This document shows, piece by piece, positions 2,677 to 27,260 of a stretch of DNA of 42,006 nt (the stretch's first letter is position 1; each line of letters begins with the position of its first letter). This DNA is from a virus (lineage: Duplodnaviria > Caudoviricetes): IMG/VR virus record IMGVR_UViG_3300020045_021433, positions 1 to 42,006 of that record. One strand, written 5' to 3'. A program made the position numbers and the translations under genes. The notes beneath the pieces are model-generated. The model did no database searches and had not been told where the DNA came from. It saw only the letters and a list, made by a program, of their open reading frames with translations.

Positions 2677-3219
2677 ATGCAAGTACAAAGAGTAATCACC
2701 GCTAACGGCATCGACGATATTAAACTCGTTGGCGAAACGGATTTAGAACGTCAGTTCATTAAGCAACTAGCCGAGGCGGGAACTCTTTCTTGCTTGAATC
2801 GTCAAGTGTCGGATTCTGTTTTGTTCAGACCTATTTCCGTGGCTTCTGAGATTAGCAGTTATACATCCAGTAATGGATCCATTCCTCGCTATAATTTTGA
2901 TGTTGTTCAAAACGCATCGCACACAATAGATCTCGTTTTCGACATCAATGACGTGCCTTTAGATCTTAATGATTTCTTAGCGATCAAACTCCAAGTAAAA
3001 CACAGCAAGTCAGCACCGCCAATCATAGATTTAGCCATAGGTTCAGGATTAGCAATTTCAGGCGTTGATTCTAATATTTTGAAAGCGACAATGACGGCCG
3101 CACAAACAAAACTATTGACTTGCGAATCCTATTACTACGATGTTCTAATGAGCAAAACAGATTTGAATAAATATTACTTAGAAGGAAAAATAACTACAAA
3201 AACCACAGCCACAAGATGA
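2677..3219 (+). CDS. Putative tail/baseplate-associated structural protein
   Basis: C-terminal beta-rich domain ending YYYDVLM...YLEGKIT typical of fibre attachment domains; overlaps the fibre gene (ATGA). Confidence 0.45.
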   Translation: MQVQRVITANGIDDIKLVGETDLERQFIKQLAEAGTLSCLNRQVSDSVLFRPISVASEISSYTSSNGSIPRYNFDVVQNASHTIDLVFDINDVPLDLNDFLAIKLQVKHSKSAPPIIDLAIGSGLAISGVDSNILKATMTAAQTKLLTCESYYYDVLMSKTDLNKYYLEGKITTKTTATR

Positions 3220-5339
3220 GCGATACAATAAATATCAAAGTTTACGAAAACACACCCGAAGGAATGCAAGCCGCAATAGCAGCTGCCGAAAATAGATTAG
3301 ATCAAAAGATTGACGATGCATTATTAGATAGCACCGCAATTGGCGATCCAACTATTCCCATCCCCGTAGACGTTACTGGAAATGCTCATTGTTTAGGAGT
3401 TGGTCCTGGTACTTATGCTAATTGGGGTGGGCTTGTAGTTCCTGCTAATAATACAGCTACTTTAAAAAGAATTGGTGGAGTATTTTATATGAGTTTGACC
3501 CTTATGGATTTGAGTGGGAAATTGAATGTTTCTGATGTTATAAATAGTTTGACTTCGGCGGAAACGGCAAAGGCTTTAAGTGCAGCACAAGGAAAGTTTT
3601 TGAATGAGAATAAAGCGAATATTACTTATGTTGATGCAGGTTTAGCTTTGAAATTAGAGGAAAAAGACTTATTAGAGCCTGACTTTTCAACAGATTACAA
3701 TACGGAAGATTTCTCTACTCTCACACTTCAAAATCCAGTTACAGGAGTTGATGCTTATGTAAATAAAGAGGCTAGAGTTACAATTGAGGGAGTTTTGTCC
3801 GCTATAACAGTAAAATCAAGCCAAGCAAGTGTTTTGGTTTTAAAATGTATAACTATCAGCGCGGGAGTCGTAACAGTACTTCATACTTTTGAAACTATAA
3901 CTTTGTTGTCAGGTATAAATACATATAGTATTGATGATAATTTTATACTACCGGTAGATTCTTATATTTCCGCATCGTCTGAACATATATACTATAATAA
4001 TAGCACTAATGGTAGTTTCTTAATAAGTGGATCTGCAACTGCTACTAATTCTCAAGTAAGAGTTTCGGTTAATTTTGAAATTACGACTTTAAAATTAGCT
4101 TACGATATAGAAACTAAAACGTCAGTCGATTTAAAATTATCTACAAAATTAGAAGTAATTGAAGGAGAGAAAAAAAACAACAATGTTGATTTTAGTGTTT
4201 TAACACTTCAAAACGGTGACACTGGTGATGTCTTTTACGTCAACAAAGAATCTAAAATTACAAGAGAAAGCAAGTTAAAAAAAATAACGGTCAAAGCATC
4301 AGGAAGTAACACTTTGAATTTAAAATGCATAAATATAAATGGAAATGTAGCTACTGTTTTACATACTTTTCCAGTAATAAATCTAATCGCAGGAACTAAT
4401 GATTACAATGTAGATTATGATTTTAATTTACCAGCTGGCTCTTATATTTCCGTTTCTTCTTATGTTATTTATTACAACAACACAACTAACGGAAGTTTTA
4501 GAGTTAATAATGATAACAACGTATCTGATTCTCCTGTAAGAGTTTCTGTTAATTTTGAAATTGTTGCTTTAGTTCCTGAACTCAACATTCTTCAAAAAGC
4601 ATTAATAGATAATCAAGTGCTGTTATACGGAACTTCAATTATGTCAAATGATTACCCTTGGTTTAAAAAATCATTAGAATCTATTACTGGAGCTGAAGTT
4701 TATAACGGAGGTTTTAGTGGAGCAACGGCTTCTCAACTTTGTGAAAATTCTAAACTGCAAAGAATATGGGACTATTATCCAAATAAAATTCTTCTTGAAA
4801 TGGGAGGGAATCAGGATGGTGCTATTAATTCTGTAGGCACATTTACAAATATAAACGGAGAGCCTGTAGTGACTGAACCGGATGCTTCTATTGATTATTT
4901 GGGAACTTATTATATTCAAGCTATAAGTTACGTTATTCAAAGAATTCTTCTGGAATATGAAAACTTTAGAGAAAGAGCTAATTTAACAGGTTTAGAAACA
5001 GAACTTGAAAAAGAAGCTAAAATCGATGCTGTAAAAAAAGTAGAATTGATTTTACTTTCTGGATTTCCACAAAAAAGATATAACGACGATTCGGAATTTT
5101 CCAAACCTTCTAATTGGAAAAGAAAAGAAGACGCAATTAAAGAGTGTGGATTGAAATATGGTGTGAAAGTTATAGATATTCAAGATTTATGTAAATACAA
5201 TATGACTTTAGAGCCATATTGGGCCCCCCCTACTGATCCATTAACTAATAATGGTCTTTATTTTATGGATGGTTTACACCCTAATAAATATGGCTATGAA
5301 TTAGTTTCAAGAAAGATTTGTGAAAGCAATAATTGGTAA
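3216..5339 (+). CDS. Tail fibre/receptor-binding protein with C-terminal SGNH/GDSL hydrolase
   Basis: Fibre-type motif NSLTSAETAKALSAAQGKFL; two tandem 125-aa repeats; SGNH blocks LYGTSI, GFSG, EMGGN, DGLHPN. Confidence 0.75.
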   Translation: MSDTINIKVYENTPEGMQAAIAAAENRLDQKIDDALLDSTAIGDPTIPIPVDVTGNAHCLGVGPGTYANWGGLVVPANNTATLKRIGGVFYMSLTLMDLSGKLNVSDVINSLTSAETAKALSAAQGKFLNENKANITYVDAGLALKLEEKDLLEPDFSTDYNTEDFSTLTLQNPVTGVDAYVNKEARVTIEGVLSAITVKSSQASVLVLKCITISAGVVTVLHTFETITLLSGINTYSIDDNFILPVDSYISASSEHIYYNNSTNGSFLISGSATATNSQVRVSVNFEITTLKLAYDIETKTSVDLKLSTKLEVIEGEKKNNNVDFSVLTLQNGDTGDVFYVNKESKITRESKLKKITVKASGSNTLNLKCININGNVATVLHTFPVINLIAGTNDYNVDYDFNLPAGSYISVSSYVIYYNNTTNGSFRVNNDNNVSDSPVRVSVNFEIVALVPELNILQKALIDNQVLLYGTSIMSNDYPWFKKSLESITGAEVYNGGFSGATASQLCENSKLQRIWDYYPNKILLEMGGNQDGAINSVGTFTNINGEPVVTEPDASIDYLGTYYIQAISYVIQRILLEYENFRERANLTGLETELEKEAKIDAVKKVELILLSGFPQKRYNDDSEFSKPSNWKRKEDAIKECGLKYGVKVIDIQDLCKYNMTLEPYWAPPTDPLTNNGLYFMDGLHPNKYGYELVSRKICESNNW
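3708..4562 (+). repeat. Intragenic domain duplication (3708-4082 and 4188-4562)
   Basis: DFSTLTLQN...VRVSVNFEI vs DFSVLTLQN...VRVSVNFEI, 480-nt period. Confidence 0.9.
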
Positions 5340-5415
5340 TTAATGAAAATCCATCTGCCAAAACTAACAGACACCATCATAGAAAAAGTGCTCGATAATT
5401 TAAACCTAATTAACA

Positions 5416-5700
5416 ATGGAATGCACGTATTGTTTTGAAACGGCTACTAAAATTCACAATTCAGAAGAGTTGTGTGATCGTCATTTTAAAATTTTATGTC
5501 CAGAACAATCTAAAACAAATCAATTGCAGGAAGTTCCAAAAAGTTATCGTGAAAAACGATTAAACAAAAGGTACACAAAACGGTTAACCAATTGCAAAAA
5601 CGATGAAGAATTTCAACAAATAATAATCGATTTCAAAGCTGATCTAGCAATCGTCGAAAAACAAAGCAGGTATTATAAAAATAGAGATAAAATAAAATGA
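5416..5700 (+). CDS. Hypothetical protein with N-terminal Cys/His (zinc-ribbon-like) motif
   Basis: CTYC...LCDRH; overlaps the holin start. Confidence 0.55.
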   Translation: MECTYCFETATKIHNSEELCDRHFKILCPEQSKTNQLQEVPKSYREKRLNKRYTKRLTNCKNDEEFQQIIIDFKADLAIVEKQSRYYKNRDKIK

Positions 5701-8369: not shown

Positions 8370-8573
8370 ATGGAAGAGCAATTAAAACTAGCAATCGAAT
8401 ATTTAAAAATAAGGTCTATAAAAACCAATAAAAAAAGCCTTCCTAATGTTCTTAAAATACAGCACGCAGTTTGTCCTATATTTGAAGTTGAAGCAGTATT
8501 AAATATGGTGTTGACCTTAGAATTTGAGGATTTTTATAATGAATTTAAAAAAGAATATCCTAACACTAAATAA
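8370..8573 (+). CDS. Hypothetical protein
   Basis: Tightly packed ORF with TAATTATG junctions on both sides. Confidence 0.55.
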   Translation: MEEQLKLAIEYLKIRSIKTNKKSLPNVLKIQHAVCPIFEVEAVLNMVLTLEFEDFYNEFKKEYPNTK

Positions 8574-8575
8574 TT

Positions 8576-9091
8576 ATGGCCAGAGTATTATCCTTTCAGA
8601 AAGTAGATGACTTTTTCGCAGAATTAGCCACAAAACATGTCGATATCAAAGATTATTGCAGTACTTCGGTTCAGGAGTTAGCCAATAAAATCGCCTCAGT
8701 CGATGGATTGGGATCGCCTTTCTTGGTGTTTTTCGACTATTACGGACACCTAGAAGGCAAAGAACAGCGCACGTTCAATAATAGATCCTTGGCTTTCTCC
8801 ATTCTTTACACCGGAATCAAAACCGATGATTATCCTGGTCAAAGATTGGCTGTAACCAATGCTGAAGAAATAGGCCTAGAAGTTTTGTCCAGGATAAATG
8901 TTCAAAGCAAAATGCAAACCATTGGCTGGCTTTACAACAATTTCGACAAAAACACGGTAACAATGGATGAAGTAATCTCCGAAGGTTCCGATGGTTTTTA
9001 CGGAATGGAGTTTCATTTTGATCTGAAAGTACTTGAACCTTTAGTCGTAACTCCCGCAAAATGGAGCGATAGTAATTTATTTTGTGTCTAA
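8576..9091 (+). CDS. Putative tail terminator/completion protein
   Basis: 171 aa alpha/beta protein in tail region; function inferred from size and position. Confidence 0.4.
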   Translation: MARVLSFQKVDDFFAELATKHVDIKDYCSTSVQELANKIASVDGLGSPFLVFFDYYGHLEGKEQRTFNNRSLAFSILYTGIKTDDYPGQRLAVTNAEEIGLEVLSRINVQSKMQTIGWLYNNFDKNTVTMDEVISEGSDGFYGMEFHFDLKVLEPLVVTPAKWSDSNLFCV

Positions 9092-9159
9092 ATGAGGTTT
9101 CCCGTAAAGAACAACTCTTTTGATTAATTTTATTGCTGACCAATTTAATATAAAATAAC

Positions 9160-9366
9160 ATGAAGAATGATTTGCCTCAAATTATCAGACCACTGATAGA
9201 ATCTACTAACTCTTTACGAGAACACCGAATGGCTTTGCACGAAATGTTTGCTCTAGCAATATCGAACATTCCAGATGATGAAACCGAAAACTTCACCGCC
9301 CGGAAACTCAAATCCACCTATCTCGCTTTGTGTGAGCTGATGGAAAATATACAGGAAACACAATGA
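9160..9366 (+). CDS. Small helical protein, paralogue A (of 11054-11335)
   Basis: 24 of 38 core residues identical to the 11054 protein. Confidence 0.8.
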   Translation: MKNDLPQIIRPLIESTNSLREHRMALHEMFALAISNIPDDETENFTARKLKSTYLALCELMENIQETQ

Positions 9367-9370
9367 AATT

Positions 9371-9399
9371 AAAAACCACTCGTAATTGAGTGGTTTTTT
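9371..9399 (+). terminator. Intrinsic terminator
   Basis: AAAAACCACTC-GTAATT-GAGTGGTTTTTT. Confidence 0.8.
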
Positions 9400-9430
9400 C
9401 TTATATTTACAACTCACTAAAAAATGGATT

Positions 9431-9940
9431 ATGAAAAAAATTATTTTGTTATTGTTGTTGGTTTCGGGGTTTGTGAATGCACAGGAATGTGATTTTAAAA
9501 TAAATGAGTTTGATGCTTTTACTAAATTAAAAAAGACTGAAACAAAACGGCAAGTTGTTGCTGTAACTACATCTACCGGCATTTATTTTTCTTTTTTTAA
9601 AAACAACTATACTTATCTTAAGGTAGGTTATCATACATCAGGAATAAAATCAATTGTTGTGGGTACTGATAATAAAATTAGTTTGATGTTACTAGACGAC
9701 TCCCTTATTGAATTATCTCCGTTAGAAATATATATGGGAGAATTTAATTCTTTAAATGATACTGATATAACTGTAAAATATATAATTACTATTGATGATA
9801 TAAAGAAAATTAGAAGTGTTGGTATTAAAAAAATTAGATTTAATTCTACTAAATATTATTATGATTTTGACGTGAAAAAAGAAAAATGGATTGAAAAATT
9901 AAATAATAATATTGATTGTTTTATTAAAGAAACTAACTAA
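9431..9940 (+). CDS. Exported moron protein (signal peptide), possible superinfection exclusion
   Basis: MKKIILLLLLVSGFVNA-Q signal peptide; very AT-rich; start reassigned to ATG 9431. Confidence 0.7.
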   Translation: MKKIILLLLLVSGFVNAQECDFKINEFDAFTKLKKTETKRQVVAVTTSTGIYFSFFKNNYTYLKVGYHTSGIKSIVVGTDNKISLMLLDDSLIELSPLEIYMGEFNSLNDTDITVKYIITIDDIKKIRSVGIKKIRFNSTKYYYDFDVKKEKWIEKLNNNIDCFIKETN

Positions 9941-10044
9941 TGACCTACATTCCCAGATACAAAAATCCAAAAATAAGAAATTGGTTCTTTCGAGTCCTGA
10001 TTGCAATGATCTTGATTGCGGCAATAAAAAAACTCCTATCGTGA
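9940..10044 (+). CDS. 34-aa basic/hydrophobic peptide
   Basis: MTYIPRYKNPKIRNWFFRVLIAMILIAAIKKLLS; ATG overlaps previous stop. Confidence 0.45.
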   Translation: MTYIPRYKNPKIRNWFFRVLIAMILIAAIKKLLS

Positions 10045-10129
10045 TGATAGGAGTTTTTTTTATCGGGGCAGATGTGCCCCGATATTTGTAATCTTGGCGA
10101 GGAGAATTATCCTCGCCAAGATTACAAAT
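10026..10129. terminator. Three abutting perfect hairpins, first is a bidirectional terminator
   Basis: Stems of 15, 10 and 20 bp at 10026-10060, 10061-10084, 10084-10129 between convergent genes. Confidence 0.8.
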
Positions 10130-10658
10130 CCATTTTAGTTTGATTGTTATTTGCTTTCCATTCTTCAAAAGTTGTTTTTCTAAAAACATCTCGTTCAGTT
10201 CTGATTTCCCTCAAAAGTTTTTCAGCATTTTTGAAATGATTTCGAGCTTCAACTTCCTTATCTACAAAATCATTTAGTCTTCTTTCCTTTTCTTCTATAA
10301 AAACAGCGTGCTCTGTGAAATAATTATAAAGAGCATCATAACATAAGTTTTTGTAAACTTTCAATGCTTCTCTAATTTCTTCTTTTACACTTTTAGATGA
10401 AATTCCAAATAACCATCCTAAAACATATTTTAATGGAATGCAGGACATTTTATATTCTTTTCCATCTGCTCCAGTTGTGGGGCAGAGCTCCATAACTGAA
10501 CATAAAATATCGTCATCTTTCATTTTTTGTAATTGACCGGAATAATCAATTCCAAGTGCTTCACAAATTGGTTTTACAGGTACAAATTTTTGTCCTGATT
10601 CGTCGATTACAATTACAATTCCTTGATTGTTGATTGTCGAAATTAATTCTGTACTCAT
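10122..10658 (-). CDS. Phage antirepressor (P22 Ant N-terminal domain)
   Basis: FVPVKPICEALGIDYSGQLQK...GADGKEYKMSCIPLKYVLGWLFGI. Confidence 0.88.
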   Translation of the reverse strand: MSTELISTINNQGIVIVIDESGQKFVPVKPICEALGIDYSGQLQKMKDDDILCSVMELCPTTGADGKEYKMSCIPLKYVLGWLFGISSKSVKEEIREALKVYKNLCYDALYNYFTEHAVFIEEKERRLNDFVDKEVEARNHFKNAEKLLREIRTERDVFRKTTFEEWKANNNQTKMDL

Positions 10659-10671
10659 AATAAATTGTTTT

Positions 10672-10775
10672 TAAAAGAAAACCCCTAAAGGCCGCCACAG
10701 CACTTTAAGGGTTTCTTATTGGTAAATAATTACCATATATTTTACATAGTGTGACGGTACTACAGTACAAATATA
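10672..10775 (-). promoter_or_regulatory. Antirepressor promoter and attenuator-like leader RNA
   Basis: TATATTTG (minus strand, 10768-10775); leader CCGTCACA complementary to loop TGTGGCGG of a U-tailed hairpin before the ATG. Confidence 0.6.
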
Positions 10776-10896
10776 CATTAATCTATGGATAAACAATACG
10801 TTTTATAATAATTTATCAATTAATCTATGTATATAGTGATTATTTCGCAAATTTTTTTGGGGTATTTGCACTATTGTATTATTTAATAAACTACTT

Positions 10897-11040
10897 TAGC
10901 TTTGCGAAACCATTTAAAACAGAAACATTATGTTTCAACAAATTCAGTTAAATAATCCACCCACAGCATCGAAGTTCGGAGTAAGACCGAATATCTTCAA
11001 GTTTTTCTTGGTTTCGCAGTCTTTGTTGTGGGCTTATTTA
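10897..11040 (+). ncRNA. Promoter plus structured CI/C4-like antisense RNA 1
   Basis: TAGCTTTG -7 box; stem CCCACAGCA/TGTTGTGGG, inner hairpin, bulge TCTTGGTTTCGCA complementary to 10903-10912 and 11055-11067. Confidence 0.6.
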
Positions 11041-11091
11041 AAAATTCTCAAAAATGCGAAACCAAGAGAACCAAAACGAGCTCACGCTTGA
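10930..11091 (+). CDS. Possible 53-aa leader ORF running through RNA 1
   Basis: MFQQIQLNNPPTASKFGVRPNIFKFFLVSQSLLWAYLKILKNAKPREPKRAHA; overlaps the 11054 start out of frame. Confidence 0.3.
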   Translation: MFQQIQLNNPPTASKFGVRPNIFKFFLVSQSLLWAYLKILKNAKPREPKRAHA

Positions 11092-11335
11092 GCAAGCAAT
11101 TCTACCAGTAGTAGATTGCAAAATCAACTTCCGTAACCAACGAAAGTTGCTTCACGAAATGTTTACTTTAGCCGTATCTAATGCTCCAGATGATGAGTCT
11201 GATAACTGGACGGCGAAACAAATCACTCCCTTTTATTTGGCTTTGTGCCAGTTATTGGAAAACCTTGATGATATTGACCAAGTTCACGCGGACAATATTA
11301 TTATGTGTATGGATAATTTAACAAAAAAACATTAA
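11054..11335 (+). CDS. Small helical protein, paralogue B
   Basis: LHEMFTLAVSNAPDDESDNWTA...YLALCQLLEN shared with 9160-9366. Confidence 0.8.
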   Translation: MRNQENQNELTLEQAILPVVDCKINFRNQRKLLHEMFTLAVSNAPDDESDNWTAKQITPFYLALCQLLENLDDIDQVHADNIIMCMDNLTKKH

Positions 11336-11361
11336 CCCCAATTTATTAATGGGGGAATACC

Positions 11362-11515
11362 TATATTTGCACTGACCAATCATTATGCATACGAAGAGTA
11401 CTCCTTGTTAAGATTCTTAACACGGGAGTTCTCAGGTTTCGGGTAGCGGGAAAAAAAACCGTCCGACTTCATTCTTCGTGTGTGATTGGTCAAGCCGTAA
11501 AGGGGATTCCCCTGT
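11362..11515 (+). ncRNA. Promoter plus structured RNA 2
   Basis: TATATTTG -7 box; 5' TGACCAATCA..CATACGAAGA pairs with TCTTCGTGTG-TGATTGGTCA; internal hairpins 11395-11433, 11439-11466, 11501-11513. Confidence 0.6.
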
Positions 11516-11537
11516 TTTGGATTTTAAACAATTTATT

Positions 11538-11783
11538 ATGGATATACCTATTTTAGATTACAAACCAGAAGTCAAAAGACTCATTTCAGAGAACTACGAA
11601 CCGGCTGATGTTTTATCGAAAGAATTTAAAAAAACCACTTTTGAACTCCTTGTCGGTTTTTCGAGTATTCTTCCACCTAATTCTATTGATGAAAATTTAC
11701 TGTATGAAGTTCTCACGGAAATGGGTTTCGAACCAAAAGAAGAAGATCCATTGGTTTTCTTTTGGTATTTTAGAAGGAAATAG
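11538..11783 (+). CDS. Hypothetical protein
   Basis: ATG 11538 after an A/T-rich initiation region; followed by terminator. Confidence 0.7.
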   Translation: MDIPILDYKPEVKRLISENYEPADVLSKEFKKTTFELLVGFSSILPPNSIDENLLYEVLTEMGFEPKEEDPLVFFWYFRRK

Positions 11784-11813
11784 AAAATAATTCACTTATA
11801 AGTTAACTTTCAC

Positions 11814-11835
11814 CACGCTTTCGGGCGTGTTTTTT
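11814..11835 (+). terminator. Intrinsic terminator
   Basis: CACGC-TTTCGG-GCGTG-TTTTTT. Confidence 0.7.
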
Positions 11836-11891
11836 ATGCTTTAAAGTCAATAAAATCGAGCCAAATGTTAAAGTTTTAAAATAATTAAAAA

Positions 11892-11939
11892 ATAATATAC
11901 CAAACTTGGTATATTATATAAATTAACGTCGTATATTTG
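11892..11939 (+). promoter_or_regulatory. Palindromic operator overlapping a promoter
   Basis: ATAATATACCAA-AC-TTGGTATATTAT (11892-11917) then TATATTTG (11932-11939). Confidence 0.7.
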
Positions 11940-12019
11940 TACAAGAGTTAAGGAAGTGATTCACACGGCAAACTTTAAAAAGGAGATCGGCAACTTCACA
12001 ACAAACGGCAAAAATTAAA

Positions 12020-12364
12020 ATGAAAACTTTAGTATTAAATTCAATCACAAAAAAAGCTTCTAAAAACTTTGAAAATAACGTTTCAAAATTATTACCTGAA
12101 GGAGTAAATGAAATTTATCTATCCTCTTGTGGAATGGAAAGAGTTGGAGCAGGTTCATATAATTATTTTTTAGAATTTAAAATTAACGATATTGAATATT
12201 TAAAATTAAAAAAGTTTACCCATAGTTCTCCTGCTTGGGATGAATGGAAAGATATTGAGGCAGGTACAAGAAAGCACGATAACTTTAATAAATCAGTTGC
12301 TTTAATGATCTTAGAAGATTGTAAAAATGAAATTGAAGAATATTTAACAGAAGAAAATGAGTAA
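12020..12364 (+). CDS. Hypothetical protein
   Basis: 114 aa, AT-rich, first gene of a two-gene operon. Confidence 0.7.
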   Translation: MKTLVLNSITKKASKNFENNVSKLLPEGVNEIYLSSCGMERVGAGSYNYFLEFKINDIEYLKLKKFTHSSPAWDEWKDIEAGTRKHDNFNKSVALMILEDCKNEIEEYLTEENE

Positions 12365-12671
12365 TCAAAATCAAAACAAAAACAAAAACGAGCAATGGAT
12401 GTTGCTCGTTTTACTTCTCGATGAAATTAGACAGGAAAAAAAGGTATCAATCAATGAAATTGCTTTAAGATCAGAAATGCTACAAGGTCACGTTTCACGT
12501 TTTTTCTCTTGCAAATTTGAACCCAAACTTTCTACTTTTCTAAAAATTGCCAGAGCAATCAAGGTAAATTTTTTCTTTGAAGATCAGGAAGACAAATCAG
12601 ATCTAAACCAATGCTTCGAACGCGCAATGGAAAGTTTAGGAAGGCGAGTAGATAAATTACCAAAAAATTAA
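12357..12671 (+). CDS. XRE-family HTH regulator
   Basis: IRQEKKVSINEIALRSEMLQGHVSRFFSCKFEPKLSTFLKIARAI. Confidence 0.85.
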   Translation: MSNQNQNKNKNEQWMLLVLLLDEIRQEKKVSINEIALRSEMLQGHVSRFFSCKFEPKLSTFLKIARAIKVNFFFEDQEDKSDLNQCFERAMESLGRRVDKLPKN

Positions 12672-12692
12672 TCAACCTACAAGTTGATTTTT

Positions 12693-12718
12693 AACCACTC
12701 TCCCCGAGTGGTTTTTTT
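12693..12718 (+). terminator. Intrinsic terminator
   Basis: AACCACTC-TCCCC-GAGTGGTTTTTTT. Confidence 0.8.
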
Positions 12719-12719
12719 A

Positions 12720-12754
12720 TGTCCTTTTGCCAAACCCCACAAATCCCGAATTTG
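12720..12754 (+). promoter_or_regulatory. Putative late promoter
   Basis: TGTCCTTTT...CGAATTTG restarts the tail operon after the island. Confidence 0.55.
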
Positions 12755-12771
12755 CATCAAAATTCAAGGAT

Positions 12772-13254
12772 ATGGCTACTACAGATTTCGAAGCAGAAGA
12801 AAAGAAAATAGGCACAGCCGCAGGAAAGGCATTGACAGCTTCTTTTCAGAATCAAATAAAAAAAATGTTTGATCGTCGTTCTGGCAATTTAGAAAAAACA
12901 AATGTTAGACCTCGTTACAAAGAGGGGCGTCTTGATCGCCTGGTTATTTCTTCTCCAAAATATTCATTCACCACGCATTACGGATCTGACAAAAAAGGCG
13001 ATACACCCGAAACTACTCGAAAAAGTGCAGAAGTTCGAAGTTTTGCCCGCCATTTAGAAAATTCAGTAATGGATCACCAAGTCAAAGCCCATACAAGAGC
13101 CGGAGGAACCGTTCAGGCTCACATCAAAGGAATCGATTACCGAGCAACAAATCATATTGCGAAAGCTTTGAAAGCTACTAACGCTCTGGAAGTGTTGGGA
13201 ACTCAGCTAGGAAATAATCGCGCAATTAAAATTCTTTCATCATTTGATTGGTAA
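12772..13254 (+). CDS. Basic structural protein (possible neck/tail completion)
   Basis: RRSGNL and HYGS motifs; precedes tape measure; ATG 12772. Confidence 0.5.
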   Translation: MATTDFEAEEKKIGTAAGKALTASFQNQIKKMFDRRSGNLEKTNVRPRYKEGRLDRLVISSPKYSFTTHYGSDKKGDTPETTRKSAEVRSFARHLENSVMDHQVKAHTRAGGTVQAHIKGIDYRATNHIAKALKATNALEVLGTQLGNNRAIKILSSFDW

Positions 13255-13257
13255 ATT

Positions 13258-16200
13258 ATGAGTGCAGAAAACATAAACAGAAGATTAAACATCTACATCA
13301 ACGACAAAGAAGTCGTGAATTCTATGGGTGGCATCACCCGAGGAATGAATCAAACACGTAATGCTATTCGCAACCTAGAAAAAGGTACTGAAAATTATGA
13401 TGTAAAATTAAAAGCACTGAAAGAAACTTATAAAAAACTTTCGGAAGAGCAAGCCAAAACAAAGGCTGAAATTTCCGAAATGCCCAGTCTTTTACAAAAA
13501 GTAAAAAACTCACTTGGTCCCGTTGCATCAGGAATGATTGCAGCGTTTTCCATTGGTTCATTGGTAAGTGGAGCAATGGCAGCGTTAGGCAATGCCAAAA
13601 GAGTAATATTCGAATTTGAGCAAGGTCTAGCTGATTTGAGTGCCATTACCGGAGCATCAGGAAAAGATTTAGAGTTTCTTAAAAATTCAGCCATAACTCT
13701 TGGTGAAACTACACAAGGAGGAGCTGTTGCCGTTGTCGAAGCTTACAAACTTATCGCCAGTGCAAAACCTGAATTACTTAGTAATGTTGAAGCTCTGAAC
13801 TCAGTTACGGAGGCGACTCTTTTACTTGCCAAAGCATCAGGAATGGAAATGCCTTTGGCAGCCACAAAATTAACGGATGCAATGAACCAGTTTGGAGCAC
13901 CTGCTGATGAAGCTGCAAAATATGTTGATGTTCTTGCTGCGGGTGCTAAATATGGTGCTGCCGAAATTCCTCAATTAACCGATGCGATATTAGAATTTGG
14001 AGCTGTTGCCAAAGTTTCAAATGTTGATATTAAAGAAAGTGTTGGTTTAGTAGAACTTTTGGCCGAAAAAGGACTAAAAGGAGCACAAGCTGGAAATGCT
14101 ATTAAAAATATTTTATTAGAAGTAAATAGCGGTTTCACAACCTCGGAAGCAAGGGATGAACTCGACAGATATGGTATTTCTTGGCAAACTTTAAAAGACA
14201 AATCAATTCCTTTTTCTGAAAAACTGGAAATGTTAAAGCCATTATTGGCTGATACAAATTCGATTGTAAACACGTTCAAAAAGGAAAATGCAGCCGCTGC
14301 CATTTCTTTAATCGAAAATACAACCCGATTAAAAGAATTGACTTCTCAAGTAGGTGAATTTGGCGTTGCAGAAGCTCAGGCGGCCATCAAAATGGATACG
14401 GTAAACAATAAAACTGAACTTTTGAAAAGCAAATATGATTCCTTAATTATTTCGATAGGAAATGGAAAAGGTGTCGTTTCTGAATTTTTTAAGTTTTTTA
14501 TTGATGGAGCGTCCAACGGAATTACAATGCTTAATAGAATGAATTCCTCTTGGAATGAAATCTATGGCAAAGCCGCCGCAAAAGGAAAAACTTTAGGAGA
14601 ATCTGATTTCGAAAAAAGAATGCAATCAGCAGGATTTGCCACTTCGACTGATGTTGAAAAAGCAAATATGGTTCTTGATAAAGCCTTGGCTGAAAGAACT
14701 GAATTATTGAAGCGAAAAAACGAAAATAATAAAAAAGTACTCGAACATACAGGCGAAAAAGCTTATTTAGGTCTTTTTGGAGAAGCTGGAGCTTCCAAAA
14801 GAGCAAAAGCAGAACAGGAACAATTAATCTTAGATATTGCTGCTCGTGATGCCATTATTAGAAAAGCAAAAGCTAAAATGAATCCTTTGAAAAACGATTC
14901 TGGATCTTCAACTTCAGAATTACCACTTTCTGTAGACGAGGCAAAGGCAGCCGATGCAGCCGCAAAAAAACGTGAAAAATCTATTGAAGATCGTAAAAAA
15001 CACTCTGAGGAATTAAAAAAAGAGCTTGAAACATCCCAAAAAGAATTATTGACTTCACAACGTGCAGGTCAAGATGCTGAATTTGCAGGGCAAAAGGAAA
15101 GTTACGACAAAGAATTAGGCCTTTTAAATGAGGAATACGACCGCAAAATTGAGGATACTAAGATAAAAGTTTCAGCACTTCAAGCGGAAATTGCCAAGCT
15201 AAATACGGATGCAAAAGACCCGAAAAATACAAAAGAAGATACAGATGTAATCAAGGCTACAATTGCTTCTAAAATTGCAGCCCAAAAAGAATATACAGGA
15301 ACTTTAGTTTCGATAGAACAACAGAGAGGCTTAAAAATTGGTACACTTCAGGAAAAGTATCTTGAAAAATCATTCCAAAAAGAGCAGGAAGATCACGCTA
15401 GAAAGATTCTTCTTTTAAAAACTGATCAGGACAATCAATTAGCAGGGATAACTACTTTGGCGCAGGCAAAAGAGATTCTTTCAGCTACGATGTCAGAAAA
15501 AGAACTTAGAGGAGTAACCACGCTAGAAGAAGCTAAAAAAATAATAAAAGCAAATTACTTAAAAGAGCAATTAAAATTAGAACTCGAAAACCTTGATAAA
15601 ATAGTAACTTCTTATAAAGCAGCTCTTGATGTTGATTCTCCAGGTTTTATTCTTTTATCCGATGAAGAAAAAGACAAATTAACCGCCGCTCTTGATGAAG
15701 CTAATGCCAAAATTGCTGCTCTAAAATTAACAATGTCTGGCGGTGAAGATCCAGTAGCAAAAGAAAAAGGTGGTGATGTAGATATTTTAGGATTTACGAA
15801 AGATCAATGGTCAGAAGCATTTACAAATATTGATTCTTTAGAGGGAGCCCTTTCTGCTGTAATGATGGTAACTCAGTCATTGACTACGGCTTTTTCTGCA
15901 TATTTTAAATTCCTTGAAGCAGGAGAAGCTCGTCAACTTCAAAAATTTCAAAAATCAGCTGATGGTAAAAAGAAAGCGCTTGCCGATCAGTTGGAAAAAG
16001 GCATAATTACTCAAGAAGTATATAATGCAAGAATGGCAAAAATAGACCAGGATCTAGCCAAGAAAAAAGCAGAGATTGAATACAAGCAAGCTAAACGCCA
16101 GAAACAAATGGCACTTGTAAACGCTTTTATTGGTACTGCTGTAGCGGTAATTAATGCTTTATCTACTCAGCCAGTATGGGCAGGGATAGCGATGGGAGCA

Positions 16201-21553: not shown

Positions 21554-21755
21554 TTGACACAAATTTGACACAGACTTTTTATTAAAAACTCCCGAAGCCC
21601 TTTGTGTGCTTGGTTTTTTGGGAGTTCTAGCAGAGAGGAAGGGATTTTCTTTTACTAATATTTAAGAAAATAAATTTCATAACTCACTGATTGTCAACAC
21701 TATTTTATTTTTAAAAAGGGGTTTTTTAATGGTTTTTGACACAAATTTGACACAG
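21554..21755. mobile_element. attP: tRNA-Ser 3'-end core flanked by arm-type repeats
   Basis: Core 21629-21646 reads AATCCCTTCCTCTCTGCT on minus; 20-bp direct repeat TTGACACAAATTTGACACAG at 21554 and 21736; IHF-like site 21680-21692. Confidence 0.8.
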
Positions 21756-21788: not shown

Positions 21789-22160
21789 TTAATGGTTTTG
21801 CAAGGTTATTTTTTTGATATCTAAATGAAGCTCCTCAAGCTTATTCATTAGGTCTTTCGTTGTCACCGGTTTTGTATATTTTGCCTGTGGTTCACTCAAA
21901 AAACTCTCATTATTTTCTGAAATAAACATTTTTGGATCGTCTTTCAAAAACCAATTCATGTTTAGATCTGGAAAAATATGCATTAATTTATCTATTATTT
22001 TTGTTCCCGCCACTTGACGGCCGCCAATATGGGCATTCCATTGGCTGTAATTCACATCATACTCTTCACAAAACATTGATAGATATGATTTTGGGGGATA
22101 TCCTTTTTCTTTTCCGTACACCTCTATAAGTGTTCTAATTTTTTCGCCGTCTACATTCAT
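21789..22160 (-). CDS. Probable immunity repressor (HTH, no peptidase domain)
   Basis: Divergent from early operon; HIFPDLNMNWFL and SEPQAKY motifs; start likely ATG at 22160. Confidence 0.7.
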   Translation of the reverse strand: MNVDGEKIRTLIEVYGKEKGYPPKSYLSMFCEEYDVNYSQWNAHIGGRQVAGTKIIDKLMHIFPDLNMNWFLKDDPKMFISENNESFLSEPQAKYTKPVTTKDLMNKLEELHLDIKKITLQNH

Positions 22161-22164
22161 AAAT

Positions 22165-22250
22165 CGATAGTTTTTAAAAAATAGATACATTTATCTAAAA
22201 AATAGATAAATATATTTTATTATTAGATATATATATGTATATTTGCTGTA
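22165..22250. promoter_or_regulatory. Divergent promoter/operator region
   Basis: TAGATA/TATCTA half-sites incl. TAGATACATTTATCTA (22182-22197); TATATTTG box for the rightward operon. Confidence 0.6.
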
Positions 22251-22278: not shown

Positions 22279-22584
22279 ATGAACAAAGATAATATTATTA
22301 TCCAAGAAAAAAACAATGTAATCACCCCAGAGCATACTCAAGAGGCTTTGGATAGTCTTCCTCACAATTATGTGGTTCAGGCTTTAGCTGTTTTAGAAAA
22401 GTGGAAAGACAGCGGAATTATTGACAAATCGTACTCTTCAAGATATGTCATAAAAGTCAAAAAAGGGGAAGAAGGAGCTTTCAATGAAGATATCATGAAT
22501 GCTCTAGTTGCCGTCGGCACAAAAAACAAAGAAGTACAAGAAAAGTTCGGACGTATAACAAAAAAAACCTCTCCATCTAATTAG
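22279..22584 (+). CDS. First early gene (Cro position), hypothetical regulator
   Basis: Position opposite repressor; followed by hairpin AAAACCTC...GAGGTTTT. Confidence 0.6.
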   Translation: MNKDNIIIQEKNNVITPEHTQEALDSLPHNYVVQALAVLEKWKDSGIIDKSYSSRYVIKVKKGEEGAFNEDIMNALVAVGTKNKEVQEKFGRITKKTSPSN

Positions 22585-23750: not shown

Positions 23751-26700
23751 ATGAAGTTCATCAAACAATCCTCTATTGACAATCTTATTGACGAAGTTCG
23801 CATTCTGGATGTGATCAAAACCTCGGAAGATTTGAAGAAAAAAGGCGTGAACTACTTTTGTAATTCTCCTTTTACTGCCGAGAAATCAGCGTCTTTTTGC
23901 GTGAGTGAAGTCAAAAATACCTTTTACGATTATTCGGCTGGCTTTGGTGGGAACGCCATTAGTTTCTTAATGAAACGCCACACGATCAATTATTATGAAG
24001 CCATCGAGAAAGCGGCTTCTATTTGCGGAATCGTGTTGGAATACGAAGAGCAAAGTGAAGATGCCAAGAAAATTCAAGACGAAGCTCTGCAAATGAAACG
24101 CTTTGTGGCTTTGATGGCTGAACAATATCAAACCCAATTTCACAAACTTTCAGACACCGATTGGCCAAAAGAAATGATGATCGCCAAACGTGCTTTCAAA
24201 GAAGACACGCTTCAGTCTTTTATGGTGGGTTATGCTCCAAATGTTGGAAGCTTTATTTCGACTCCTGCCATCAACAACGGTCATTTTGAACTGACAAAAA
24301 CTTTAGGTTATACACTCACAAAGAACGGTTCATCGTATGATTTTTTCAGAGATAGGATTATGTTTCCTATTCATAACGAAAAAGGAGATGTAGTTGGTTT
24401 TGGTGGCCGTGTAAAAAAAGCCGATGAAGAAAAGTATGCAAAATATCTAAATTCTAGAGAATCTAAACTTTACTTAAAAGAAAGGTGCCTTTATGGTTTA
24501 TGGCAAGCAAAAAAGACAGTTGTATCATCAGCTAAGGCAATTCTGCTAGAAGGATATACAGATGTAATCGCTTTACACCAAGCAGGTGTTCAAAATGCAA
24601 TAGCCACTTGTGGAACCTCATTGACTGAAGGTCACGCTAAATTATTACACCGTTTTTGCAAACATGTGATTTTGTTTCGTGATGGAGACAAAGCGGGTTT
24701 GAGAGCTGTTCACCGTGATATCGACATTTGTTTGCGCCACGGATTCAAAGTAGAAGTCGTGATTTGTCCTGATGGCGAAGATCCAGACAGTTTGTCGAAA
24801 ACTACCGACATCAACGCTTTTATTGAAGATAAACGTGAAGATGCCATTATTTGGAAAGCCAAATTTTTGCAGGAAGAAGCCAAAAACCCGGAACTCATTT
24901 CTTTGGAAACAAAACTTCGTGCTGAATTAGACGAGAAAATTGTTCAGGCGAAATATACTTTGGCCACTGAAGAAGAATTGAAAGCTTTGAACGTGACAGA
25001 ACGTAAATTCAAGAAAAAAGAGAACGACAACATTTTCAAATACATTGCCGAGCAAGAGAAAGAACTCAAGATGGAACTTGCCGACATCCCTAGATATGCT
25101 CCGGCATTGATCGCGCAATCTGTTGAGAGTATGGCCAACACGCTCCACGCCATCCCAAACAAAATTGAACAGGATGCTTATGTGAAAATGGTGGCGAAAA
25201 TTCTAGGTCAAAAACCGATTGTTCTTTCAGGAATTATTTCTTCACACGAAGAAGCGGAAGCCAAAGCCAAAAAGAATAAAGGTCAAGAATCCGAGAAAAA
25301 GGAATATGAGGTTCTGGGACTGCCAGAAGGTGCTGACAAGGATCAATATTTAAGAGATCGTTTTTGCATAATTGGGAATTCTTATTGGTTTCGTAAAGAA
25401 AATACTTTCATCAAAGGAACCAATTTCAGAGCGGAAGCCTTATTTCACATAGATGGAACTCGTGAAAATAAAAGACTTTGTGAAATCACGAACCATCTTG
25501 GCCACAAAAGACTGATTGATTTTGATTCTAAAGATTTGATCAACTTTCAAAAATTTCAAGAGAAATTGATAATGGAAGGCTTCTTTGTTTTCGAACCGGG
25601 AGTGTCAACAAATGATTTTAAATTATTGACCAATAATCTGTTTTCGGATTTCAATACTGCCAAAGAGTTGATGATTTTAGGCTTGCAGCCACAAGGTTTT
25701 TTTGCCTTTTCGAACAGCGTTTATTGCGACGATGGATTGATTAATTTCAATAAATACGGAATCGTTCACATTGCTAGTTTGGAAAAATCAGAAGAGGAAC
25801 GCAAAGCCGAAACCGAAACAAAATACAAAGCCGATGTGACTTATTTTTATTCGCCATCGCATTCTGAAATTTACAAATCAGCTAATGAAGGCGATGACCC
25901 TTATGAAAATGACCGTCATTTCATTCATAAAGTTGCACCTATTTCCCTGGACCAATGGGCAAACCAAATGACTAAGGTTTTCGGAGATAAAGGGAAATTG
26001 GGTGTCGCTTTTTGTATCGCTGCCAACTTTAGAGATTTGTTTATCAAACATTATAATTTCTTCCCACTCTTTGGAGGATTTGGACAAAAAGACAGCGGAA
26101 AATCGGGTTTTGGTTCTTGTCTTCAGGCATTCTTTTATCACAATTTGAATCCTTTGGAACTGAACACTTCGACCTTGGTGGGTTTGTCTCGAAAGTTATC
26201 CAGATGCAAAAATACAATTGTGTTTTGCGATGAGATGCGCGACGATATAGACGAAGCGATGCACCAAACTTTGAAAGGAACTTGGAACGGAATTGGTCGT
26301 GAAAAAGGAAAAGGTTTCGACTCCAATAAAACTACGGTTGACCAAATCCACTCGGCCGTTTATTATTCCGGCCAATATTTGCCAACTCGTGACGATGGTG
26401 CTTTGCCTTCGAGATCTATTATTGCCAACTTCGAAAACAAGGAATTCTCCTCAGACGAAAAAGAGCAATACAATAAACTGATCGCTTGGAATAAAGAAGG
26501 GATTTCGTCTTTCATTTTGGATGTAATCAAACACCGGGATTATGTTGCCAAAAACTTAACGAGAGCTTATGCCGAAACCAGCAAGGAAATGAAGCTCGCA
26601 TTGAAAGAACAGGAATATCAAAACCGTGTTTTCGATAATTACATCGTTCTCCTGGTAATTGTAAAAATGCTTCAAGACAAATTCAATTTTCCTTTTACCT

Positions 26701-27260
26701 ACGAAAACTATTTTGATTTGACTAAAGAAGCGATTATCGAAAATTCCGAAACGATTGCTGATAGTGATGGTTTGGCCGCTTTCTGGCGCATTGTCGAATA
26801 CTTGGCAGATCCTGCGCAGCATTCAATAAAACAAGGTCAGGATTTCACCATCGAGAGAGTTCGCTCCTTTGATATTTATCCTAGAAAGGATGAAAAAGTA
26901 GAATACCCAAACAAAAAAGATAGTAAAGGAAGGTATGAGAAGATCTTGTTTATCAATTTCAACAAAATACACCAGGATTATCACAAGGAAGTTACCAAAC
27001 GAAAAAACGAAGAAGTCATTGGAGCCACGACCATTCGTAATTATTTGAAATCAAAGAAATATTACATCGGTCCGTTCAAAAGTAAACGAATGGGAGATAA
27101 AGCTCCGAGTGGTTATGCTTTCAATTATTCGATGATGAAACGATTGGGCATTTTGTATCTGGAAGACGCCAACGATTCTCAAACGGAAATTTCAGAAGTT
27201 TTCGACACACCCAAAAAACATCAGATTATTACAAATCCTAATCAATTAGAACTGAAATAA
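23751..27260 (+). CDS. DnaG-type primase fused to P-loop helicase/ATPase
   Basis: CHC2-like N-term, FRDRIMFPI, GFGGR, KYLNS, TOPRIM EGYTDV and DGDKAG, EDPD; Walker A GQKDSGKS, Walker B VFCDE. Confidence 0.9.
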   Translation: MKFIKQSSIDNLIDEVRILDVIKTSEDLKKKGVNYFCNSPFTAEKSASFCVSEVKNTFYDYSAGFGGNAISFLMKRHTINYYEAIEKAASICGIVLEYEEQSEDAKKIQDEALQMKRFVALMAEQYQTQFHKLSDTDWPKEMMIAKRAFKEDTLQSFMVGYAPNVGSFISTPAINNGHFELTKTLGYTLTKNGSSYDFFRDRIMFPIHNEKGDVVGFGGRVKKADEEKYAKYLNSRESKLYLKERCLYGLWQAKKTVVSSAKAILLEGYTDVIALHQAGVQNAIATCGTSLTEGHAKLLHRFCKHVILFRDGDKAGLRAVHRDIDICLRHGFKVEVVICPDGEDPDSLSKTTDINAFIEDKREDAIIWKAKFLQEEAKNPELISLETKLRAELDEKIVQAKYTLATEEELKALNVTERKFKKKENDNIFKYIAEQEKELKMELADIPRYAPALIAQSVESMANTLHAIPNKIEQDAYVKMVAKILGQKPIVLSGIISSHEEAEAKAKKNKGQESEKKEYEVLGLPEGADKDQYLRDRFCIIGNSYWFRKENTFIKGTNFRAEALFHIDGTRENKRLCEITNHLGHKRLIDFDSKDLINFQKFQEKLIMEGFFVFEPGVSTNDFKLLTNNLFSDFNTAKELMILGLQPQGFFAFSNSVYCDDGLINFNKYGIVHIASLEKSEEERKAETETKYKADVTYFYSPSHSEIYKSANEGDDPYENDRHFIHKVAPISLDQWANQMTKVFGDKGKLGVAFCIAANFRDLFIKHYNFFPLFGGFGQKDSGKSGFGSCLQAFFYHNLNPLELNTSTLVGLSRKLSRCKNTIVFCDEMRDDIDEAMHQTLKGTWNGIGREKGKGFDSNKTTVDQIHSAVYYSGQYLPTRDDGALPSRSIIANFENKEFSSDEKEQYNKLIAWNKEGISSFILDVIKHRDYVAKNLTRAYAETSKEMKLALKEQEYQNRVFDNYIVLLVIVKMLQDKFNFPFTYENYFDLTKEAIIENSETIADSDGLAAFWRIVEYLADPAQHSIKQGQDFTIERVRSFDIYPRKDEKVEYPNKKDSKGRYEKILFINFNKIHQDYHKEVTKRKNEEVIGATTIRNYLKSKKYYIGPFKSKRMGDKAPSGYAFNYSMMKRLGILYLEDANDSQTEISEVFDTPKKHQIITNPNQLELK

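What the first reader, a model, noticed from the sequence alone, without database searches (positions are those of the whole stretch)
9092..12718. RNA-switch regulatory island inserted in the tail operon (candidate new system)
Seen: within 3.6 kb there are an antirepressor, two paralogous small proteins, three promoter-proximal structured RNAs each with a loop/bulge complementary to its own 5' end, an exported protein, a small hydrophobic peptide and an HTH operon, bounded by near-identical AACCACTC/GAGTGGTT terminators (9371, 12693), with a late promoter restarting transcription afterwards. Known: P1/P7 c4-icd-ant, P4 CI-kil and N15 immA use processed RNAs pairing with upstream and downstream targets to control antirepressor/killing genes. 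Inference: a Bacteroidota secondary immunity or anti-superinfection locus using several orthogonal RNA-target pairs. I cannot confirm it is undescribed.
Basis: partly seen in the sequence, partly recalled or inferred. Interest (0 to 1): 0.8.

Follow-up and report, generated by a model that had tools for sequence, protein, structure and literature searches.

The report
Stacked antisense RNA switches, Flavobacterium phage
A temperate phage related to Flavobacterium prophages carries, in its tail-gene region, three uncatalogued leader sequences predicted to fold as RNAs, each with its own letter code that matches its own start and changes in step with it in related phages, so each likely works as a self-locking antisense switch like the P1 c4 immunity RNA, and one would also silence a small gene 2 kb upstream.

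Summary
The three RNA leaders are real in sequence, mutually orthogonal by duplex energy and covary across homologues; none matches Rfam C4 or c4-2. The region is not one island. It is a stack of separate cassettes at an insertion site that is empty in distant relatives. orfA and a winged-helix gene occur in 18 of 18 close loci, RNA-C in 17, the antirepressor in 2. RNA-B has a c4/CI-like layout: one guide pairs with its own 5' end or the orfB start codon, and a leader ORF runs through it (5 of 5). The antirepressor leader is a different type: its 5' end pairs with a terminator loop. New here: RNA-C's second target is missing at its own gene but sits before orfA, 0.25-2.5 kb upstream, in 13 of 15 loci (0 of 15 at four control genes). 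The HTH operon has no RNA switch. Expression, processing and immunity are untested.

The parts
8576..9091 (+). 171-aa conserved gene, left flank of the insertion site (no family match; tail-module role inferred from position before the tape-measure gene)
9095..9108 (+). AGG-N-CCGTAAA, resembling the junction at the 3' side of RNA-C; likely a remnant of the 3' half of an RNA-C cassette
   Evidence: 6 of 15 orfA leaders; CCGTAAA in 7 of 15
9137..9145 (+). Displaced RNA-C target (TGACCAAT) 23 nt before the orfA ATG; 9 bp with the RNA-C guide
   Evidence: GAYCAAY in 13 of 15 orfA leaders, 0 of 15 at four control genes; 1 of 80 ATG ORFs of the window
9160..9366 (+). orfA, 68-aa small protein of unknown function, paralogue of orfB
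9371..9398 (.). Terminator-like hairpin, scored on both strands
9431..9940 (+). 169-aa predicted exported protein behind a near-consensus -7 element (9402-9409); swapped for other ORFs in most relatives
   Evidence: homologue in 4 of 18 loci
9940..10044 (+). 34-aa hydrophobic peptide
   Evidence: similar ORFs in L004, L018; tblastn 2 of 18
10122..10658 (-). P22_AR_N antirepressor-family gene
   Evidence: 2 of 18 loci
10659..10775 (-). Antirepressor leader: -7 element 10775-10768, 5' address 10757-10750, terminator-like hairpin about 10716-10677 with the complementary address in its loop (10699-10692), then a U-rich run
   Evidence: same layout with other addresses in L018, L040, L043, L045
10892..11071 (+). 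RNA-B cassette: -7 element (10892 as aligned with homologues, one mismatch; exact match at 10897), 5' target a1 10903-10921, closing stem 10948-10968 with 11024-11041, inner hairpin, guide 11001-11019, start-codon target a2 11054-11071
10930..11091 (+). 53-codon leader ORF running through RNA-B and overlapping the orfB start
   Evidence: open in 5 of 5 homologues, 51-57 codons, same frame offset
11054..11335 (+). orfB, 93-aa all-helical protein of unknown function
11362..11517 (+). RNA-C cassette: -7 element 11362-11369, 5' target a1 11373-11403, closing stem 11419-11436 with 11494-11516, inner hairpin, guide 11470-11492
11538..11783 (+). 81-aa protein with a predicted winged-helix fold (best match RFX5, Z 7.7, rmsd 2.7, 73 aligned)
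   Evidence: 18 of 18 loci
11892..12671 (+). Separate cassette: palindrome with 12-bp arms 11892-11917 (operator inferred), -7 element 11932, 114-aa ORF 12020-12364, HTH gene 12357-12671; no structured leader
12693..12755 (+). Terminator-like hairpin followed by a conserved bipartite motif (likely late promoter); right flank of the insertion site, part of the core genome

Best explanation
The region is a stack of separate gene cassettes at one insertion site of a temperate phage, three of which begin with an address-coded leader that likely acts as a self-locking antisense RNA switch, predicted to let its gene be expressed briefly in a naive cell and to shut it once the small RNA has accumulated. 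Shown in sequence: the addresses, their complements, their covariation and their orthogonality. Computed: in RNA-B the guide pairs with its own 5' end and leaves the orfB start mostly open, and it moves onto the start codon when the 5' end is occupied. In the antirepressor leader the 5' end pairs with the loop sequence before the terminator's 3' arm is made. Inferred: a small RNA is released (by processing for B and C, by termination for the antirepressor leader), binds the 5' end of new transcripts in trans and so makes more of itself. RNA-C is a split cassette: its start-site target has stayed with orfA, which now lies upstream on another transcription unit, so RNA-C would repress orfA in trans. 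What orfA, orfB and the winged-helix protein do is not shown; most likely they are short-lived regulators of the lysis-lysogeny or competition step, as Icd and Ant are in P1.
For: RNA-C, 17 sequences: 5'-paired fold 93.9% of cells paired, 13 of 38 pairs changed on both sides; closing-stem fold 92.2%, 6 of 13 stem pairs changed on both sides; 0 of 500 shuffles each, slid controls 30-54% paired. The two folds share strands, so they are alternatives. RNA-B, 5 loci with three address types: guide with own 5' end -19.2 to -22.2, with other address types -6.0 to -12.4; with own start codon -18.9 to -25.3. Blocking the 5' end moves expected guide pairs from (11.3, 3.7) to (0, 16.3) in the window, and likewise in L018 and L004; start region unpaired 0.73 to 0.06. 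Leader ORF open in 5 of 5. Antirepressor leader: same scaffold, different address, U-rich tail in 5 of 5; cognate pair best in 4 of 5 rows. orfA site: 13 of 15 against 0 of 15 at four other genes; commonest 7-mer of otherwise divergent spacers; 8-13 bp with the local guide, one compensatory change (L005), one G-U change (L022), preceded by A or T so that it reads ATG or TTG in 10 of 13; Thr codon ACC in 12 of 12 although ACC is 52 of 313 Thr codons in nine window genes. L017 shows the unsplit form, RNA-C directly before an orfA-family gene whose start carries the address. RNA-C-like leaders with other addresses in L041 and L045 (weak model hits E 0.021, 0.051; cognate -27.8, -26.5; other -5 to -17). 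Site empty or nearly so in L062, L065, L067.
Against: No transcript, processing site or phenotype was observed. The shuffle controls ignore relatedness, and the structures were drawn on the window sequence. In L008 and L038 the equilibrium fold already covers the start codon without any trans RNA, so the ON state there needs co-transcriptional trapping. For RNA-C, blocking the 5' end does not change access to the winged-helix start (0.50 against 0.51), so how that gene is gated is unexplained. RNA-C addresses hardly differ within this phage group (cognate best in only 7 of 18 and 6 of 18), so they cannot give heteroimmunity among these phages. The orfA site is weak by energy (-10.9; 196 window sites reach below -9 and it is not among the 14 best), is absent in L001 and L021, reads CTG in the window, and has a single compensatory event. 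The window's RNA-B promoter has a mismatch at the aligned position; if the exact element at 10897 is used, the 5' target is cut (duplex -8.2) and orfB is predicted always off. Antirepressor-leader statistics are modest (shuffle p 0.021, 0.001, 0.004, 0.056, 0.40; cognate best in 3 of 5 columns), and its terminator fold is 8.4 kcal/mol more stable than the read-through fold.
Confidence: 0.6

Rival explanations
1. The leaders are purely cis-acting attenuators. The choice between folds is set by transcription speed, by ribosomes on the leader ORF or by a protein, and no small RNA acts in trans. The orfA site is then a relic of an old cassette rearrangement.
For: All cognate pairings except the orfA site can form in cis. 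The leader ORF is kept in 5 of 5 RNA-B copies. The orfA leader carries a second remnant-like motif. Two loci lack the site.
Against: Wholesale re-keying of addresses on a fixed scaffold has little purpose in cis. The orfA site persists in spacers that are otherwise divergent, among phages whose flanking protein is 48-76% identical to the window's, and follows the guide in L005.
Confidence: 0.17
2. One reading: one coherent secondary-immunity or anti-superinfection island in which the three RNAs jointly hold down an antirepressor and killing genes and the exported protein excludes other phages.
For: A true antirepressor-family gene. The divergent pair 'antirepressor leader / RNA-B-type cassette' recurs in L018 and L043. 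The layout parallels c4 and CI (PMC5320573, PMC4825925, passages).
Against: The parts assort independently. No consistent cross-pairing between RNA-B or RNA-C and the antirepressor leader (sequences). The exported gene has no structured leader in the window and no defence-family match.
Confidence: 0.13
3. TGACCAAT is a DNA operator for the winged-helix protein, which represses its own promoter (site at +1) and orfA; the RNA folds are secondary.
For: Winged-helix fold. The motif sits at the predicted +1 of the protein's own transcript and before orfA. The two genes co-occur in 18 of 18 loci.
Against: Covariation extends over 20 pairs well beyond the 8-mer. Variants at the orfA site are those tolerated by RNA pairing (G-U). 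The RNA lies before an exported-protein gene rather than the winged-helix gene in L008 and L015. RNA-B and the antirepressor leader use unrelated addresses.
Confidence: 0.07

Closest known systems
Phage P1/P7 immI: C4 antisense RNA (Rfam RF01695), icd, ant1/ant2 (PMC5320573, PMC8198154, PMC12197685; passages read)
   Same: A structured RNA inside its own leader with exposed sequence complementary to targets; one target on the translation start; specificity re-keyed between related phages; antirepressor-family gene in the locus.
   Different: No Rfam match. One long guide instead of two short loops a' and b'. Targets cover start codons, and Bacteroidetes lack Shine-Dalgarno sequences (PMC7366714, passages). 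The antirepressor is not on the RNA-B or RNA-C transcript. Three switches are stacked, and RNA-C's second target is on another transcription unit.
Satellite phage P4 CI RNA with seqA and seqC (PMC4825925, one passage; the kil reading frame running through cI is recalled, not from a call)
   Same: RNA pairs with targets upstream and downstream of itself. RNA-B has a leader ORF through the RNA. The antirepressor leader is predicted to work through termination.
   Different: No sequence family match. The antirepressor leader has only the upstream target, with the address in the terminator loop itself. The controlled genes are not replication genes.
Gifsy-1 IsrK (PMC4825925, passages)
   Same: A short RNA form acts in trans on the long form of its own transcript and shifts it between two folds.
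   Different: IsrK activates translation, while the computed direction for RNA-B is repression. The possibility that RNA-C activates rather than represses orfA is not excluded.
Rfam c4-2 (RF02944; PMC5737381, one passage; supplement unreadable)
   Same: Described as a distant C4 homologue; an earlier scan note reports a Bacteroidota copy.
   Different: No match at E up to 10 in this genome or four related virus records.

Membership tests
Rfam C4 (RF01695) / c4-2 (RF02944) | Match to the covariance model | tested here: not met
   No match in 8400-13600 at E up to 5, in 7 homologous loci at E up to 1, or in 5 virus records at E up to 10.
P1/P7 immI | RNA, icd and antirepressor in one operon | tested here: not met
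   ant is on the minus strand, divergent from RNA-B; RNA-C lies 0.7 kb away facing away from it.
P1/P7 immI and P4 CI | Targets both upstream and downstream of the RNA (RNA-B) | tested here: met
   Guide pairs with 5' end and start codon in 5 of 5 loci, three address types.
P1/P7 immI and P4 CI | Downstream target at the gene behind the RNA (RNA-C, antirepressor leader) | tested here: not met
   0 of 15 winged-helix starts carry the address; guide with that start -7.6, antirepressor loop with ant start -4.7. Present in the unsplit locus L017.
P1/P7 C4 | Two short single-stranded loops a' and b' on a three-stem cloverleaf | tested here: not met
   Predicted released forms have a closing stem, one inner hairpin and one guide of 19-23 nt.
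P1/P7 C4 and P4 CI | Processing to a stable small RNA (RNase P at a GGW for C4) | not testable with these tools
   No RNA run listed. An invariant GG starts the RNA-C closing stem; RNA-B has none there.
P1/P7 C4 | Address differs between related phages and covaries with targets | tested here: met
   RNA-B and antirepressor leader; RNA-C only against distant scaffold relatives, nearly fixed within the group.
P4 cI-kil (feature recalled) | Reading frame running through the RNA | tested here: met
   RNA-B, 5 of 5. RNA-C in the window has only an 8-codon frame (sequence).
P1 icd / P4 kil | Gated gene inhibits division or kills | not testable with these tools
   No family or fold assignment for orfA or orfB.
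P22_AR_N antirepressor family (PF10547) | Profile match above cut-off | tested here: met
   106 bits against a cut-off of 30.7; antirepressor activity itself untested.
Winged-helix DNA-binding proteins | Fold | tested here: inconclusive
   Model pLDDT 85; top matches are winged-helix proteins but best Z is 7.7 and Foldseek E 0.09; binding untested.

The most novel reading that the evidence does not exclude
RNA-C defines a split c4-type circuit. A constitutive phage RNA keeps its upstream self-target for positive feedback, but its start-site target has moved with orfA onto the end of the morphogenesis transcript. An immunity-type RNA thus gates a late-transcript gene in trans across 0.25-2.5 kb of freely exchanged cargo. 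Several such address-coded locks can be stacked without cross-talk as plug-in control units for phage accessory genes.
Probability: 0.45. Interest if true: 0.72.

Novelty: new variant of a known kind. Interest (0 to 1): 0.6.

Why it matters
C4- and CI-type immunity RNAs are described from proteobacterial phages; the searches listed found no paper on such RNAs in Bacteroidota (listings only). Here three uncatalogued scaffolds sit side by side, each giving exact predictions (which bases pair, which swap should rescue), in a genus with a tractable laboratory strain. If the split RNA-C circuit holds, it shows how a cis-wired immunity RNA becomes a trans regulator, and how antisense control works without Shine-Dalgarno sequences, by covering start codons. 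The orthogonal addresses would also be ready-made regulatory parts for Bacteroidota.

Tried and rejected
My first reading, that the inner seed pairing with a downstream stretch is the regulatory pair, was dropped: that pairing is better read as the closing stem of the released RNA. Cross-talk from RNA-B or RNA-C to the antirepressor leader: an 8-nt match (RNA-B stem strand with the antirepressor loop, seen by eye) and a -12.7 duplex (RNA-C guide with the antirepressor 5' end) occur in the window but are not repeated in L018 or L043 (read); rejected as chance. A wider RNA-C regulon: 1 of 80 ORF starts in the window carries the address, and two extra copies in related records are not at a start codon. 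Homology of RNA-B to RNA-C: the RNA-C model does not hit RNA-B at E up to 10. orfA and the winged-helix gene as needed tail genes: not found behind the flanking gene in most distant relatives. Homology of orfA/B to the small helical proteins behind related RNAs: not supported (best 4.8 bits; hhalign probability 0.5%). Fold search for orfB: only generic helical hairpins, best Z 6.0. No PDB sequence match for the left-flank protein. No similar DNA in GenBank phages. orfB alone found no viral locus. The RNA-B pattern scan gave two known loci and two chance matches, L034 and L035. No RNA holder was listed; this is not evidence. Complex prediction of orfA with the winged-helix protein gave no answer (score 0.00); this is not evidence. 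GGA-N5-TCC (recalled as a Bacteroidetes SOS box) is absent from 8400-13300. Rows left out: duplicate fetches of one contig (L019, L023, L031, L048, L050, L060 with L013; L020, L029, L033, L051 with L001; L025, L027, L037, L052 with L018; L028, L036, L054 with L008; L030, L056 with L021; L024, L049, L053 with L022; L055 with L032), L011 (23-residue partial hit), L003, L004 and L009 from the 18-locus table (contigs end inside the site), L007 from alignment A3, and L003, L004, L009, L010, L017, L032 from the orfA-leader test (no orfA-family gene directly behind the flanking gene in the DNA held).


Full report
Setting. The window is a 42,006-base virus record, 99% complete by CheckV, with integrase, primase, portal, holin, endolysin and tape-measure genes. 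Close relatives are prophages in Flavobacterium genomes (record titles). The finding lies between a 171-aa gene (8576-9091) and a 175-aa gene (12727-13254) that precedes the tape-measure gene. Neither flank has a family match, so 'tail operon' rests on position.

Observation. The listed parts exist. The three leaders follow Bacteroidetes-type -7 elements (TAnnTTTG; PMC7366714, passages) and fold better than shuffles (z -3.0, -3.2, -5.4); the leaders of orfA and of the HTH operon do not (z -0.2, +0.7). Each internal address pairs best with its own 5' end: RNA-B -20.3, RNA-C -29.9, antirepressor loop -15.2; cross pairs between cassettes are -4.7 to -12.7. Start sites are inferred, 4 nt behind the -7 element.

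Not one island. Searches with the 81-aa protein and the orfA/B family gave 18 distinct loci, the window included, that span the whole site. orfA-family and 81-aa genes occur in 18, RNA-C in 17, the exported protein in 4, RNA-B and HTH in 3, the antirepressor in 2. These loci were fetched by those genes, so I also searched with the left-flank protein. Of 10 viral loci, the 7 at 59% identity or more were the contigs already known to carry RNA-C; one was cut off, and two at about 40% gave no RNA-C or orfA match in the DNA held. Of 401 Flavobacteriaceae genomes 9 matched, one of them already known. In L062, L065 and L067 the conserved bipartite motif follows the flank gene within 8-63 nt, and genes resembling the 175-aa and tape-measure genes come next (read by eye). 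So this is an insertion site whose right-hand terminator and promoter-like motif (19 of 19 loci) belong to the core genome.

RNA-B. Order: 5' target, start of a leader ORF, closing stem, inner hairpin, guide, closing stem, start-codon target. Five loci carry it (window, L004, L008, L018, L038) with three address types. Guide with own 5' end is -19.2 to -22.2 against -6.0 to -12.4 for other types; with own start codon -18.9 to -25.3 against -9.9 to -21.6. The leader ORF is open in 5 of 5 and ends 35-41 nt past the next ATG in the same frame offset. Blocking the 5' target, as a trans RNA would, moves the guide onto the start codon in the window, L004 and L018; in L008 and L038 the guide already prefers the start codon at equilibrium. 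The window's aligned -7 element has one mismatch and an exact one lies 5 nt downstream; from there the 5' target would be cut and orfB predicted always off. The cassette stands before different proteins in L004 and L038 and dictates their first codons.

RNA-C. In 17 aligned sequences (L007 left out) both alternative folds covary: the 5'-paired fold has 13 of 38 pairs changed on both sides, the closing-stem fold 9 of 23; 0 of 500 shuffles reach either, and slid controls pair 30-54% of cells against 92-94%. These controls ignore relatedness. Cognate duplexes average -29.6 against -23.9, and -18.4 against -14.8 (0 of 20,000 permutations), but the cognate is best in only 7 and 6 of 18, because the address is nearly fixed in this group. 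A model built on it hit 2 of 150 Flavobacterium genomes, both known loci, and weakly hit two leaders with other addresses, L041 and L045, whose guides pair with their own 5' ends. The gene behind RNA-C is usually the 81-aa protein, an exported protein in L008 and L015, and an orfA-family gene in L017. The 81-aa protein models as a winged helix (pLDDT 85; best Z 7.7 to RFX5; Atlas neighbours include regions of VapE-type proteins); DNA binding is inferred.

The displaced target. The RNA-C address is absent near the start of the 81-aa gene and of three other genes (0 of 15 each) but present within 40 nt before orfA in 13 of 15 loci where orfA follows the flank gene. It is the commonest 7-mer of those divergent spacers (11 of 15 exact) and marks only orfA among 80 ATG ORFs of the window. 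It gives 8-13 contiguous pairs with the local guide, follows the guide's change in L005, takes a G-U in L022, and begins an ATG or TTG codon in 10 of 13: a 3-4-codon frame in 7, an in-frame extension of orfA in 3; the window has CTG. orfA starts 250-2,497 nt upstream of the RNA-C promoter. L017 has the unsplit order, and 6 of 15 orfA leaders keep a second motif from the 3' side of the RNA. The simplest history is a cassette whose target half moved behind the flank gene. Against function: the duplex is weak (-10.9; 196 window sites fall below -9), L001 and L021 lack it (two changes on a poorly resolved tree), and one compensatory event is thin.

Antirepressor leader. Of 10 matches in 7 of 401 genomes plus L018 and L026, four showed the window's layout by eye (L018, L040, L043, L045): a 5' address, then a hairpin with the complement in its loop and a U-rich tail. 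L026 has an RNA-B-type leader instead, and L038, L041 and L042 have short plain leaders. The cognate pair is best in 4 of 5 rows and 3 of 5 columns; shuffle p 0.021, 0.001, 0.004, 0.056, 0.40. Before the 3' arm is made the 5' end pairs with the loop sequence (-16.6); in the full leader the hairpin wins (-28.9 against -20.5). Read-through would therefore depend on kinetics, and the terminated RNA's loop could capture new 5' ends. L018 and L043 repeat the divergent pairing with an RNA-B-type cassette.

Mechanism. Shown: addresses, complements, covariation, orthogonality, independent assortment. Computed: the fold switches. Inferred: release of small RNAs, action in trans, positive feedback, transient expression after infection. 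I put the RNAs being functional switches at about 0.85, c4/CI-like trans action at about 0.65, and a working orfA target at about 0.45-0.5. How RNA-C affects the winged-helix gene is unexplained.

Comparison. It works like P1 c4 (PMC5320573, PMC8198154, PMC12197685; passages) and P4 CI (PMC4825925; passages) but fails family membership: no Rfam match, no two-loop cloverleaf, no RNA-icd-ant operon. N15 immA is recalled only; one search was a listing I did not read further. PMC2864571 (passages) lists c4 for Proteobacteria and phages. PMC5737381 (one passage; supplement unreadable) and PMC8040213 (passages; supplements not opened) may hold relatives. Searches listed no paper whose title or abstract start describes such RNAs in Bacteroidota. 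This scan's own notes describe the class on other genomes, and two of them turned my reading to the guide-5'-end view, which I then tested; none matched these sequences.

Verdict. A new variant of a known kind: real, uncatalogued, testable RNA switches stacked at an accessory-gene site, with a split circuit as the distinctive feature. Interest 0.6.

Noticed in passing
window 21557-21575 and 21737-21755: An 18-nt direct repeat upstream of the integrase gene, a candidate attachment-site element; next to it a divergent pair 21789-22190(-) / 22279-22584(+) with palindromes at 22182-22211, likely the primary immunity switch.
   Followed up: partly
window 8370-8573: About 200 nt between the 288-aa gene and the left-flank gene, with a 67-aa ORF and an exact -7 element at 8477. 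In most close relatives the two genes are only a few to 40 nt apart, so the window may transcribe the flank gene and orfA from an extra promoter.
   Followed up: partly
window 10027-10129: Three abutting hairpins between the 34-aa peptide and the end of the antirepressor gene, the last with 23-nt arms at 96% complementarity.
   Followed up: no
window 11892-11917: Palindrome with 12-bp arms over the -33 region of the HTH operon promoter; L002, L003 and L021 show similar palindromes by eye, and the ORF before the HTH gene is not homologous among them.
   Followed up: partly
L038:519-760, L004:1434-1700: The RNA-B cassette is plugged onto different small helical proteins, whose first residues are set by the RNA address (the same first six residues in L038 and in window orfB).
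   Followed up: partly
L041:2787-2977(-), L042:474-671, L045:2042-2231, L026 about 2760-3000, L043 near 2650: Further address-coded leaders with other scaffolds or addresses near P22_AR_N genes in Flavobacterium genomes and phages; L045 has two types next to a distant homologue of the same left-flank gene.
   Followed up: partly
window 23751-27260: 1169-aa protein with a DnaG-type primase N-terminus and a further C-terminal region; the stand-alone 81-aa winged helix resembles regions of VapE-type proteins in the Atlas, so a link to replication is possible.
   Followed up: no
L058 about 4730-5700: At the same insertion site a distant phage carries what reads by eye as a response-regulator-like ORF followed by a small lipoprotein-like ORF; L032 has a similar small ORF followed by a hydrophobic ORF.
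   Followed up: no
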